This document shows positions 10,384 through 23,934 of a stretch of 48,520 nt of DNA, piece by piece. Each line of letters opens with the position of its first letter. The first letter of the stretch is position 1. Below the pieces are notes generated by a model. That model saw only the letters and a list, made by a program, of their open reading frames with translations. It was not told the DNA's origin and ran no database searches. Where the stretch lies: positions 1-48,520 of the forward strand of contig JAHBMJ010000406.1 in the NCBI GenBank assembly GCA_018398765.1, written 5' to 3'. Both the position numbers and the translations under genes were made by a program. Source of the DNA: Chromera velia. Lineage: Eukaryota.

Positions 10384-11590
10384 CATGTGGGACTGGGCGT
10401 CTGTGTCTCTCTGTTTTTTCCCTGTCTCTCCTTTCATTTGGTTTTTTTTTCTGTTCTGGAATCAAGAGCCGAAGGGATCGATCGACACGGGAAAAAAGAG
10501 ATTGATTGATTGATTGCCCTGGGGCTGTGCCATCTGTTGGTGGCTGGCCCATTTCTCTTTCTTCGTTTTGCTCCACTCCCATATTCATGACTGAGTGAGT
10601 CTTTGTGTCTGTCTGCCGTCTCGGTCGGGAATGGTGGAATCGACGTTCTGTCTGGAGCATGCCGGTTGGTGTCCGTGTTGGCCGACCTTCCATCTTTAGT
10701 TTGGACAGATTGGCGACTCGGAATGACCGGGTGCGAATCCCTTGAGCTGTTCTTTCTGTGTCACTTTTTGATCTGCCCTCCCCTTCTCCTTTCTGAGCTG
10801 GAAGGGAGAGGAAAAAAGGAGGGAGGGATAGTGGAGGGAGGCACGGGAACGTCCTTTTGAGCACCCCGGTTGACGTCGATGTCAACTGAGAATCCTATCG
10901 CCGCAGTGCATGCAAGCAGTTTGGCGGCGTCAATGGGATTTTTTGACCGAATGACTTGGTGTGCGATTCCTTCCGTCTTTGAGAGAGAGAGAGAGAGCTG
11001 TTAATTGTCTTGCAGTTCCCTGCATGCCTCTCTCTCCTTTCCATCTAAGCGTCTACACTTTCCCGCCCTATAAATCAAACAGACGCAGAGCCGCTCCTGC
11101 TCTTTCAGAAAGATGCCCTCTGGTTGTGTCTTTCGCTCTCTCTGTCTTTTCTATGGCATGCATGAATGTTGTTTGGTATTTCGTGAACAGCATGTGGGAC
11201 TGGGCGTCTCTGTCTCTCTCTGTTTCTTTCCTGTCTCTCCGTTTGTTCAGTTGGTTCTCGTTCCAATTCCGGAAATTCGCAATTAAGGAATGAACAAATC
11301 GAGACGGGAAAAAAGAGATTGATTGATTGATTGCCCTGGGGCTGTGCCATCTGTTGGTGGATGGCCCATTCGTCTATCTTCCTTTTTCTTCTTCTGCTTC
11401 CCCCATGCACCCACCACCTGCCTGTCAGTTGCTCTGTCTGCCATCTTTGTTCTGGAGCATGCCGGTTGGTGTCCACGTTCTTATGGCTTCCTGCCGTCTT
11501 TACTTGGACTGGTTGGAGATCAGGAAAGATCGGGTACGAATCGCTTCAGCTGATAATGGTGACCACATCGTGGTAAAGAACAGCTCACAC
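10384..11590 (+). repeat. Diverged tandem duplication, ~800 bp offset (10384-10750 vs 11191-11590)
   Basis: Shared CATGTGGGACTGGGCGTCT, ATCGA.ACGGGAAAAAAGAGATTGATTGATTGATTGCCCTGGGGCTGTGCCATCTGTTGGTGG and TCTGGAGCATGCCGGTTGGTGTCC. Confidence 0.9.
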
Positions 11591-12957
11591 AAAAGGCCAC
11601 GCTTTCAAACAAGCAGCAGAAAAGTCATACAAGGGAGACGTCTCGTCTCGTTTTCGAGCGCTGAGTGTGTTCCCTGTCTGCCTTTTTTCTGCTTGCCGTC
11701 TTGAGCAACGGTTCTAATTGTGACGGGCAGGTAGTAAGTGAATCCACATGTGAGAGGGGGGCGAGGTGCGCCTCTTTAATTCCTCTGTCCATCCATCGTG
11801 CATCCCCCTCGGATCTTCCCATTCTCTCGGTTGGGAGGCGGGGGGGAGGCCTGATAGGTAGGGATTGGGGGGGAGGTGGTGGAGGCGCCCCCTGTTGGGG
11901 GATTGGGGGGTGGGGTGGATGGTCGGTGGTGGATCTTTCAATTCGCTCTAGCTGTGGTCCTTCTTCTTCTCTTTCTGGCTGTGCACTTTTCTTCTAGACG
12001 GGAGGGACTGCGTGTGTGAGTGCGGAGGAGGAGGAAAGGGTCTAGAATGAAAGGAGAGTGACTGACTTCCGTCTGCCTCCCTGCCAGTCTCTCATTACAG
12101 TTCTTTTCTTTCTCTTTCTCTCTCCCTTCTCTCAAGTGTGCTGTCTGTCTTGCGGTTCTGGACTTGCAAGCAGCTGGCGCAATGTCTGCATAGAGATGAC
12201 AAAGCCTACAGAGGACCGATTTCAGCTCCTTCGAAGGTCGCTCCTGAGGGGGGCACACGACTGCCGAATGGCAGGCCATCAGCTGTCTCCGTGTCTTCTG
12301 TAAGCTGCAGGAGGGGATTTCTTCATCAACATCTCGATGGTCGTTCGTTCATTCTGTCTTCCTGCCATACCGCTCTGCTCGTCAGGAGCAGAGAGAACTC
12401 TTTTTGTGAGTGTGTGTGAGCGTCTTCTCTCAGCCTCTTACTGCGTGGCTGAGAAGAACGACTCCCCGAGAATGAAAATTCTCAGAAGAAGAGGAAGAAG
12501 AAGAGGAGGATGACGAAGAAAACGACGAAGAAGGAAGGAAGAGGTATCCGATCTGGGCTGAGGTCTCCCTCACTCACTGACTGGCTGTCTTTTATCTTTC
12601 TTTCTTGTTTGTTTGACCTCTGTGAGAATGTGAAACTCGGAACCATTCCCTTTCTTTTTCTCTCTCGGTGTCTTTTTTTTGCCTCTTGCCGGACAGAAAG
12701 AAAGAAAGAGAGAGAAGAGATTGGAAGGAATATGGATGCCTTGAGACTCCGGTGTGCTCTGTTGGGGGATTTACTTTCCCCGACTGTAAGACCCGAGGAG
12801 TCCTCCACTGATTCTCTGAAGGCGGCTTTCTTTCAAGCGTATGATGAAAGTTTTTCTTCTTTTGAGTCTTCAGTGTAGTCATGGAAGAAGCTACAGCCCC
12901 TGCCGGGGTTTCTGTTGTTGCCGTGCCACTGGCACTTCTGCCGAGAAAGAGACCGTG

Positions 12958-22300: not shown

Positions 22301-23934
22301 CTGCATGAGAAAAGAATTGCGACCCTGCATGCATTGTTCTTTGTGTTCCTTTCATCCGATCGAGCGTGATTCGTCAGACAGATCTGAACGCTCTAGCTGG
22401 GTTGACTGACGTCAGTGGGTGGTGGCAACAACCTTTCCTTTCCTCGTGCAACACAACACCGCATTTTATTCGACACTGCTGAGTGAGGACATGCAGAAGC
22501 AAGGTTTGCAGAGCACACGACAGAAGAGAAAAAAAAACAAGCGTGCCAAGTCGAAGCCAAATGGAAAAATTCGTGCAAATGAAGCTGCGCACATGTAAAT
22601 ACAGTGAGTCAGACCTTTTGGAGCATCGTCGGTCGTCAGCTGCTGTGGTTCTTGTCTTGTCTTTTCTTTTTTTCAATCCATCTCCACCCCTTCCCCTCTT
22701 CTTGGTACGCCGAGAAGGTACCTGCAAAGCCGCCGATCGCACGTCAGCAGGTGCTGCCGGTCCCTTTTTCTTCCTGAGCAGGGCGGATGTTCTTCATCTT
22801 TGCAGTCTATAGTAAGTGTTGCTCTCTGCGTCAGCTAGAGCAACTGGAGGAACGACTTCCAGTGCACAATCGATTGATGCACACAGGAGCAAAACGTCGA
22901 ATCAGCTGGAAGCTCGAACCGGCGTGCCTTAAGACTGCTTTGCTGATGGAACCACGAGGCTCCTGGCACTGGCACTGCGTCTCTCTAACCTGGTCTGATT
23001 CAATATCAGATGGGCAGGCTGACTGACAAAGCAATGGTCCCGAGCTTCACCGCCCTGCATGCTAACCGATTTCAGTCATCCACTCATTCATCGATCAAGA
23101 CAACCACAGATGGGGCTAGAGATGGGCCACTCAGATGGGGAAGGTGTATGATGCTGATGATTCTGGTGTATCAAGATGATGGAGCTGCTAGTCTAGCTGC
23201 TAGTGCCTTGGCTAGTGAGTCGTAATGATAGCTTAATATTAGAATAAAATATTCTAATGTGGTATGATATCATGCATGGTTCATGCTGTTTAAAGACTAA
23301 TGTAAAACTAAAATCGGTCGAAAAAATTGTTAAGGGCCTTTTAAAGTTAGTGTTTGCTTCTAGCCACTTTAAGCCCGCTTTGTACACTAATTTTCAGCTT
23401 CATACTCCATATACTTCTCGAGATTCACCAACCAGACTTTTTCAAAATGGTAAGTTGACTTTTCAAAAAGGTAAGTTAAAATGTCCGGTAACCGGACTTT
23501 TTCACCAGACATTCCACCGGACATTCTTTAGGGTACATAGACGAGATTTAAGCCAGCTAACCTAGAGCATCCTAGAGCTCGGCCTTCAAATTAATTATTA
23601 CGTCGTAATATCGTCTTAGACTAGGATTTAGGTCTGTTTTCATAACGGTCTTAACAGATATCTTTTTATTCTGAAAATTCAAACATCTAGAACAAACAGT
23701 CAAAGACATCAATGAAACATTGAAACAGAACATCCTAAGTTGGGACTCTCGGCTATAGACTCTTACCAGTCTCCTGGTCATCGAAGGCTTCTCACTCACT
23801 GGCATGGAGTCGCGTTCAGTCGTGTTGTCTCACTGTATAGTTCACTGTGAAAAGAAAAAGAAACTGAAGAAGGAACAAAAAACGGCGAAGATACATATAC
23901 AGATCAGCAAACTCTGAAATAGAGTCGCTGGATG

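What the first reader, a model, noticed from the sequence alone, without database searches (positions are those of the whole stretch)
10651..22790. 13-kb same-strand array of hairpins with a conserved basal helix and variable tops: candidate undescribed ncRNA or guide-like family
Seen: two short motifs recur as pairs, mostly 60-100 nt apart, and are complementary. GCAC-N-CCGGTT(GG) pairs with (CT)GACCGG-GTGC with one bulged base and is preceded by an unpaired CTGGA. 5'/3' arm positions include 10657/10725, 10861/10953, 11457/11528, 12973/13049, 13590/13656, 14880/14955, 15760/15813 and 22114/22188. Substitutions keep the pairing: 3' arms GACCGG, GATCGG, AGCTGG and AACTGG; GCATG/CATGC in the 20224 unit; GACTCC/GGAGTC at 12745/12797. 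The enclosed sequences are mostly unrelated yet fold back, e.g. TGAGA/TCTCA, AGATA/TATCT and GGTGCAGT/ATTGTACC in the 22100 unit, and GAGAATCCTA/TGGGATTTTT and CGCCGC/GCGGCG in the 10855 unit. G-U pairs work on the + strand, which points to RNA rather than DNA structure. No coding gene is recognisable in the block. Inference: a polycistronic small-RNA precursor cluster or scaffold-plus-variable RNA family read by one protein. I do not recognise it as a known family.
Basis: partly seen in the sequence, partly recalled or inferred. Interest (0 to 1): 0.9.

Follow-up and report, generated by a model that had tools for sequence, protein, structure and literature searches.

The report
Clustered hairpin family resembling microRNA genes
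A gene-free 12-kb stretch in a relative of the malaria-parasite group holds eleven related hairpins on one strand that share two complementary blocks of about 21 letters, likely a microRNA gene family made from one long transcript, which would be unusual for this group but is untested by RNA data.

Summary
The array is real. There are 11 related hairpins plus 2 relics, all on the + strand at 10.65-22.2 kb and none elsewhere in the window. The block has no Pfam hit at cut-off and no Rfam match. The conserved part is two blocks of about 21 nt. The 5' block (UGGAGCAC...GUGUC) has five invariant positions among positions 4-14 and is identical in copies whose neighbouring sequence has drifted to background. 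The 3' block is less conserved and pairs with it in a register leaving 2-nt 3' overhangs. That is a guide/passenger signature, so the 'scaffold' is more likely the product and the variable tops are loops. The block is rich in other long + strand hairpins and lies between a promoter-like and a terminator-like patch. Best reading: a polycistronic miRNA-like family (0.42). Against it: only 13 of 19 duplex positions pair, covariation is weak, and no reads, targets, Dicer or Argonaute were examined. Rivals: variable guides on a conserved stem, a protein-bound structured RNA, decaying duplications.

The parts
8050..8170 (.). TGCATG- and CpG-rich patch, inferred divergent promoter between a RING-domain ORF (-) and the block (+)
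   Evidence: third-highest TGCATG bin and highest CpG bin; the two higher TGCATG bins lie upstream of coding genes. Inference, no RNA data.
8200..23200 (+). Inferred non-coding host transcript; GTAAG-type donors at about 9190, 9598, 11734, 15961, 22812
   Evidence: ends approximate, not shown by reads.
10395..10520 (+). Family B long hairpin, copy 1
   Evidence: z -5.0; paralog of 11202
10653..10743 (+). U1: conserved 5' block 10653-10673, 3' block 10723-10743, 49-nt top
10857..10973 (+). U2: 5' block 10857-10877, insertion in the 3' arm, 75-nt top
11202..11335 (+). Family B long hairpin, copy 2: base kept, top diverged but paired
   Evidence: z -3.8
11453..11546 (+). U3: 5' block identical to U1 (21 of 21), weakly folding top
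12745..12802 (+). U4: short hairpin, possible degenerate relic; membership not supported by the model
   Evidence: absent
12969..13067 (+). U5: 5' block identical to U9 (21 of 21); recent duplicate of U7
13071..13143 (+). Second hairpin (HP2) after U5; arms GCTG-N-YGGTC and GACCR-N-CAGC
   Evidence: z -2.6
13586..13674 (+). U6, followed by an HP2 at about 13683-13753
14876..14973 (+). U7, followed by an HP2 at 14977-15047
   Evidence: z -5.4
15479..15514 (+). U8: truncated relic with almost no top
   Evidence: E 0.08
15756..15871 (+). U9: 3' arm at 15851-15871, 74-nt top
18402..18495 (+). Family D hairpin, copy 1 (copy 2 at 19140-19232)
20232..20326 (+). U10: divergent member; an insertion closes the bulge
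20924..21031 (+).
   Evidence: E 7e-4
21547..21785 (+). U12: 197-nt branched top; HP2 at 21788-21840
22110..22207 (+). U13, followed by a short HP2 at 22214-22255
   Evidence: z -3.5
23200..23700 (.). AT-rich trough, inferred convergent termination zone facing the fatty-acid-hydroxylase-family gene (-)
   Evidence: similar troughs lie between converging ORFs at 4-5 kb and 43.5-44 kb

Best explanation
The block is a tandem-duplicated family of hairpins whose two conserved ~21-nt arms likely form a microRNA guide/passenger duplex, which an RNase III would cut out of one inferred + strand transcript for loading into Argonaute. Shown from the sequence: paralogy, one strand, a conserved 5' block from about -4/-1 to 21, a less conserved complementary 3' block, variable tops of 47-197 nt, and many other long hairpins. 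Inferred: transcription from about 8.2 to 23.2 kb. Predicted: cuts at the block edges, probably from the loop side since HP2 begins right after the 3' block; a 21-24-nt product (21 nt from the conserved U, or 24 nt from an upstream A); silencing of shared targets by seed variants. Degenerate copies would be births and deaths of a multigene family.
For:: 5' positions 4-7, 13 and 14 are invariant in 11 of 11, U at position 1 in 10 of 11; the commonest base falls to 5 of 11 at position 22. The 3' block is conserved over about positions 1-20; identity over 53 non-sister pairs is 0.76 (5' block) and 0.64 (3' block) against 0.48-0.51 for the four adjacent 21-mers; 5' exceeds 3' in 39 of 53 pairs (pairs are not independent). 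U1 and U3, and U5 and U9, are 21 of 21 identical in the 5' block with 9-15 of 21 in the adjacent 21-mers. Register, worked out by hand: the 5' strand's extra 1+2 nt cancel the 3' strand's 3-nt bulge, giving 21/21 nt with 2-nt 3' overhangs; 11-13 of 13 core pairs hold in 9 of 11 units. Long hairpins: 26 on + and 6 on - in 12.1 kb; 31 shuffles gave 4-15 on +; the other 36 kb has 27 and 22. Relatives have miRNAs: Toxoplasma (PMC2877743) and Symbiodinium (PMC3853145).
Against: No reads were examined and no Dicer or Argonaute was shown for this organism. The duplex is poor: 13 of 19 positions pair at best, with 3-nt and 1-nt bulges and a 4x2 loop, which fails plant annotation limits (recalled). Block edges are soft: tract starts fall at -4 to -1 in 30 of 55 pairs, ends at 16 in 19 and at 21 in 11; the 21-nt windows were chosen after seeing the profile. 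Folding is -23 to -47 kcal/mol, with z <= -2.6 in only 5 of 9 units, against -40.6 to -83.1 for Symbiodinium precursors. Tops of variable length give no fixed ruler from the loop side. Positions 2 and 8 of the supposed seed vary. No convincing target site lies in the window: one borderline site for 1 of 11 guides. Toxoplasma MIRNAs were not found in clusters.
Confidence: 0.42

Rival explanations
1. Same RNA-silencing pathway with the roles reversed: the conserved base is the lower stem that positions a Drosha/DCL-like first cut at the 4x2 loop, and the variable tops give diverse guides.
For: The base is 10-14 bp from the single-strand junction to the loop, near the animal (about 11 bp) and plant (15-17 nt) rulers (recalled). 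U1, U2 and U9 tops hold 21-mers with 5 or fewer unpaired bases on both arms. The TCN/NGA pair above the loop is paired in 8 of 8 with 5 pair types. Families B and D also keep the base and vary the top.
Against: U3, U5, U6, U7 and U10 tops have large bulges or weak pairing above the loop. A mere ruler should not need 21 of 21 identity on one strand only. Guides diverging faster than their stem inverts the usual pattern.
Confidence: 0.15
2. An undescribed protein-bound structured RNA of about 150-200 nt: hairpin 1, a pyrimidine-rich hinge, hairpin 2, possibly snRNA-like (Sm class), with the conserved helix as a protein site.
For: A second hairpin with its own conserved arms follows 11-17 nt downstream in U5, U6, U7, U12 and U13. 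The hinge consensus is RMATCYCT; a relaxed A-pyrimidine-purine pattern fits 5-6 of 12 hinges (pattern post hoc). The bulges sit at constant positions. The layout recalls U1 snRNA (5' end, closing helix, Sm site, last stem; recalled, from no call).
Against: Strict Sm site in 0 of 12. No U1, U5, snoRNA or other match on the hairpin cores at E<=10; two weak C/D snoRNA scores overlapping U6 are far below their gathering scores. HP2 pairing is not significant per unit (p 0.05-1.0 in 10 units) and its motif is missing after U8 and U9. Conservation is strand-asymmetric.
Confidence: 0.2
3. Decaying tandem duplications or relics of a small mobile element (MITE, SINE head), with short tracts kept alike by gene conversion, or a DNA-level repeated site; no RNA function.
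For: Clear segmental duplicates with flanks: 12935-13373 vs 14844-15291 at 91%, 10384-10572 vs 11191-11389 at 80%. Several degenerate copies. Weak covariation. A B-box-like GGTGCRAATC ends the 3' arm. The rest of the genome could not be searched.
Against: Conservation is confined to the same two blocks while flanks sit at shuffled levels. The 13 best matches share one strand, with none in the other 36 kb. No target-site duplication or A-tail was seen (no chance control). The inverted repeats are imperfect in the same way in nearly every copy. No transposase or RT ORF among 115 frames.
Confidence: 0.15
4. An array of self-cleaving ribozymes (HDV-like), the variable hairpin being P4.
For: GG-A-GCA before the stem and C-R-M-A after it resemble the junctions around HDV-like P4 (recalled).
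Against: No common P1 or P2 partner: a P1 partner in 3 of 10 units and a P2 partner in 3 of 10, at unrelated distances. The upstream sequence is purine-rich, with no pyrimidine L3 loop visible by eye. No ribozyme family in Rfam.
Confidence: 0.03

Closest known systems
Toxoplasma gondii miRNA families miR-60 and miR-4 (PMC2877743; section 8 read whole, passages, supplement term search)
   Same: Apicomplexan-related host; short fold-backs; multi-member families; Dicer without a PAZ domain and products of mixed length (miR-60a is 25 nt).
   Different: [quoted passage not shown]
Symbiodinium microadriaticum miRNAs (PMC3853145; passages)
   Same: Alveolate; 84-90-nt precursors, 21-22-nt guides, 5' U in 9 of 21.
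   Different: Much more stable precursors (mean -68 kcal/mol); the unit words are absent from the main text.
Tandemly expanded miRNA clusters of animals and plants (miR-379/410, C19MC, miR395, miR482/2118) (recalled)
   Same: Paralogous hairpins on one strand in a non-coding host, conserved guide arm, variable loops, seed variants.
   Different: No sequence relation (Rfam); looser duplex; unicellular alveolate host.
Chlamydomonas DCL3-dependent miRNAs (PMC4817775; passages)
   Same: Single-celled alga whose PAZ-less Dicer has Drosha features and groups with the Toxoplasma Dicer.
   Different: Many high-confidence ones lie in introns or UTRs of coding genes, not in a gene-free family array.
Stem-bulge RNAs, Y RNAs, vault RNAs and Dictyostelium Class I RNAs (recalled)
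   Same: Conserved closing stem with a bulge and a variable interior, in paralog clusters.
   Different: No bulged-C Ro site; no consistent Pol III terminator, with internal T runs in 3 of 12; no Rfam match.

Membership tests
miRNA gene family | Discrete 20-25-nt reads with precise 5' ends, plus star reads | not tested
miRNA gene family | Guide/passenger register with 2-nt 3' overhangs | tested here: inconclusive
   The conserved blocks fit this register, but the edges are soft and were chosen post hoc.
miRNA gene family | Guide arm more conserved than passenger, loop and flanks | tested here: met
   0.76 > 0.64 > 0.48-0.51.
miRNA gene family | Well-paired duplex (plant limit about 5 mismatches, 3 in asymmetric bulges; recalled) | tested here: not met
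   13 of 19 paired at best, with 3-nt and 1-nt bulges and a 4x2 loop. Best 21-mers in any register pass in 28 of 29 hairpins, but those were picked for length.
miRNA gene family | Fold-back more stable than shuffles | tested here: inconclusive
   z <= -2.6 in 5 of 9 units; U3, U5 and U10 are near zero.
miRNA gene family | RNase III and Argonaute in the genome | not testable with these tools
   No genome is held; no mention in PMC4501334 main text or in 12 of its 16 supplements.
Any Rfam 15 family | Match at gathering score | tested here: not met
   0 in the window. At E<=10 only weak scores far below gathering.
H/ACA snoRNA | H box in the hinge, ACA tail, variable pocket | tested here: not met
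   ANANNA within 18 nt of the stem in 1 of 12; the internal loop is small and conserved.
C/D snoRNA | Box C and D with a terminal stem | tested here: not met
   6 box pairs on each strand; one has a stem of 4 bp or more and it is not on a unit.
Sm-class snRNA (U1/U5-like) | Canonical Sm site between two stems | tested here: not met
   0 of 12 strict; 5-6 of 12 relaxed, post hoc.
Pol III small RNA or tRNA-derived SINE | Intact B box, nearby T4 terminator, no internal T4 | tested here: not met
   The B-box-like word has G or A at the invariant T (recalled consensus); T4 within 30 nt in 3 of 12, internal T4+ in 3 of 12; no tRNA.
MITE/SINE | Both orientations, target-site duplication, genome-wide dispersal | tested here: inconclusive
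   One orientation and no TSD in the window; dispersal could not be tested.
K-turn / SECIS | Tandem G-A pairs on both strands | tested here: not met
   3' GA in 5 of 12; no selenoprotein ORF context.
HDV-like ribozyme | P1, P2, P3/L3 and P1.1 upstream of P4 | tested here: not met

The most novel reading that the evidence does not exclude
The block is a 15-kb polycistron of an undescribed small-RNA class: two-hairpin units with a fixed bulged helix and pyrimidine hinge that one protein complex binds, carrying fast-evolving tops as interchangeable guides. This would be a eukaryotic scaffold-plus-guide RNA array outside RNAi, snoRNA and snRNA.
Probability: 0.2. Interest if true: 0.88.

Novelty: new variant of a known kind. 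Interest (0 to 1): 0.62.

Why it matters
My ten paper searches (open-licence library only) listed no paper whose title or abstract start deals with small RNAs of chromerids. Toxoplasma miRNA genes were reported not to form clusters. A polycistronic, seed-diversified miRNA-like family in an apicomplexan relative would show that this lineage had animal- or plant-style miRNA family expansion before many parasites lost RNA silencing. It gives exact 21-24-nt candidates that one small-RNA library can confirm or kill. If the products are unit-length instead, it is a new structured RNA class.

Tried and rejected
Whole-genome search: no genome is held, so dispersal and orthologs stay open. Expression: no reads were obtained, so it stays open. 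Pattern scans of public collections: metagenomes 4 matches, viral contigs 2 and 1, prokaryote genomes 0 and 4. The six loci checked for further copies hold no array. The model gave 7 matches among the 11 loci at 11.6-25.2 bits, against 57-80 for the nine best units. I treat them as pattern-selected chance; note that U11, U12 and U8 score in that same low range. A scan for eukaryotic rDNA in viral contigs found nothing, so complementarity to rRNA and snRNA was not tested. Earlier findings: five look-ups, all empty. 150-nt windows gave unimpressive z-scores, +1.4 to -2.3; signal appears only with tight ends. Coding or transposon relics: 115 frames of 75 aa or more gave one weak hit below cut-off. 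Tandem Repeats Finder found only short-period arrays. Unit words were absent from the Toxoplasma and Eimeria small-RNA supplements held as text and from the Symbiodinium main text. Considered from recall and dropped: hairpin and twister ribozymes, attC sites (GTT/AAC polarity reversed, no cassettes), Helitron ends, bulge-helix-bulge sites (second bulge only 1 nt), spliced-leader RNA. A gene-free centromere-like region was considered and not tested.
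Full report
Setting. The window is eukaryotic, about 50% GC, with introns and microsatellites. Coding genes include a fatty-acid-hydroxylase-family ORF (23935-25275, -), a kinase (+), a glutamate synthase domain (-), a DUF2205 ORF (+) and a weak RING ORF (-). The only named homologs of ORF 42281-43114 are Theileria proteins at 34% identity, so the host is apicomplexan-related. That it is a chromerid is my guess from recall, not a result. No whole genome is held and no reads were examined.

Observation. The 5' motif occurs 10 times, all on + in 10652-22124, against 1.22 expected. A covariance model from 8 units found 19 matches at E<=5. The best 13 are on + within 10649-22206 and add U5, U11, both halves of U12 and truncated U8. 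That makes 11 full units, with U8 and the unrecovered 12745 hairpin as relics. U9 pairs better with 15853-15862, and U12 encloses about 200 nt. Rfam gives nothing at gathering score and nothing credible at E<=10, for the block or for U6 and U7 alone. Of 115 reading frames of 75 aa or more in 8-23.6 kb, one had a weak Pfam hit below cut-off.

Anatomy. The consensus from the base up is: RGA/TCY (3 bp), a 3-nt bulge on the 3' strand, GCAC/GTGC, a 1-nt bulge on the 5' strand, CCGGTT/GACCGG, a 4x2 loop (GRYG/AT), TCN/NGA, then a variable top. About 11-17 nt downstream a second hairpin often starts with GCTG-N-YGGTC, and its partner GACCR-N-CAGC lies at variable distance. It is not significant unit by unit. 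Structure support is moderate. The covariation score of 0.270 was reached by 4 of 500 shuffles, only one pair has double changes, and U7 and U10 were out of register in that alignment. Hand-registered, 12 of 16 changed pairs are kept, p 0.085 against a transition-only null. The + strand folds better with RNA and with DNA parameters alike.

Where the conservation lies. Anchored profiles show a 5' block from about -1 to 21 and a 3' block from about 1 to 20. Over 53 non-sister pairs the 5' block is 0.76 identical, the 3' block 0.64 and the four adjacent 21-mers 0.48-0.51. U1 and U3 share 21 of 21, as do U5 and U9, while their neighbours share 9-15 of 21. Positions 4-7, 13 and 14 are invariant and position 1 is U in 10 of 11. 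The unpaired extras on the two strands cancel (worked out by hand), so the two blocks sit as 21/21 nt with 2-nt 3' overhangs. This is what a miRNA family looks like from sequence alone: guide most conserved, passenger less, loop and flanks free. The caveats are real. Windows were set after viewing the profile, tract ends fall at 16 more often than at 21 (19 vs 11 of 55 pairs), pairs are not independent, and only 13 of 19 duplex positions pair.

The block as a whole. Long unbranched hairpins number 26 on + and 6 on - in 10.3-22.4 kb. 31 local shuffles gave 4-15 and 0-5. The other 36 kb has 27 and 22; at a stricter cut the counts are 13 and 1 inside against 7 and 5 outside (thresholds are mine). 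Two unrelated duplicated hairpins, 10395/11202 and 18402/19140, also keep their base and diverge at the top. Segmental duplications are plain. AT-rich troughs lie between converging ORFs at 4-5 kb and 43.5-44 kb, with others at 34-35.5 kb, at a microsatellite near 40 kb, and at 23-24 kb. TGCATG clusters peak at 25.5, 42 and 8 kb, the first two upstream of coding genes. From this I infer one + strand transcript of about 8.2-23.2 kb. It is not shown.

Mechanism. Most likely (0.42) an RNase III cuts the conserved duplex from each hairpin and the 5' arm guides Argonaute to shared targets; every step after the sequence pattern is inferred. The reverse assignment, a conserved ruler with variable guides, gets 0.15 because five tops give poor duplexes. 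A protein-bound two-hairpin RNA gets 0.20, functionless duplication or a mobile relic 0.15, and a ribozyme 0.03. H/ACA, C/D, Pol III, strict Sm, K-turn/SECIS and HDV-like features were tested and not met.

Literature seen. PMC2877743: passages, section 8 whole, 4 supplements searched by term. It reports 14 miRNA families, a 5' A bias and no clusters. PMC3853145: passages. PMC4817775: passages. PMC4501334: term searches and passages, with no mention of Argonaute, Dicer or miRNA in the text or in 12 of 16 supplements; 4 files were not searched and may bear on this. PMC9353057: listing and supplement term search only. Ten searches listed no paper on chromerid small RNAs by title or abstract start; most subscription journals are outside the library. 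Animal and plant cluster comparisons, annotation limits and snRNA or ribozyme motifs are recalled and come from no call.

Verdict. A real, apparently selected and undescribed hairpin family. It works most like a clustered miRNA family but cannot be filed as one: the read criterion is untested and the duplex criterion is not met. New variant of a known kind; interest 0.62.

Noticed in passing
window 13160-13373 and 15078-15291: A 214-nt segment is 99% identical in two copies while the surrounding duplication is 91% identical; it holds two TGATGA words and folds with a terminal stem, but lacks a box D at the 3' end.
   Followed up: partly
window 18312-18742 and 19077-19687: A second segmental duplication (69-76% identity) with blocks of near-identity outside its hairpin.
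   Followed up: partly
window 18010-18099, 13873-13982, 11610-11696, 17379-17462, 20796-20887 (+): Single-copy long hairpins with z from -3.7 to -7.0 (picked post hoc), further precursor candidates.
   Followed up: partly
window 5' blocks of U1-U13: By hand: several variants (positions 2, 11, 17) would be synonymous if the target were coding sequence read as His-Gln-Pro-Glu-Cys-Ser; hairpin pairing explains positions 2 and 11 equally well.
   Followed up: no
window 4000-5000, 23000-24000, 34000-35500, 43500-44000; 8050-8170, 25450-25700, 42000-42100: AT-rich troughs seem to mark converging gene ends and TGCATG clusters seem to mark promoters in this genome.
   Followed up: partly
window 12990-13000: The G run in the U5 top, where its sister U7 has GGTGGGAGG, may be an assembly error.
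   Followed up: no
window 23935-25275 (-): A long uninterrupted ORF of the fatty acid hydroxylase / sterol desaturase family; the closest other hits are 49-51% identical.
   Followed up: no
window 34570-34640 and 35310-35370: Short repeated GCCGGCAG-containing motifs inside the AT-rich trough, possibly ends of a small mobile element (seen).
   Followed up: no
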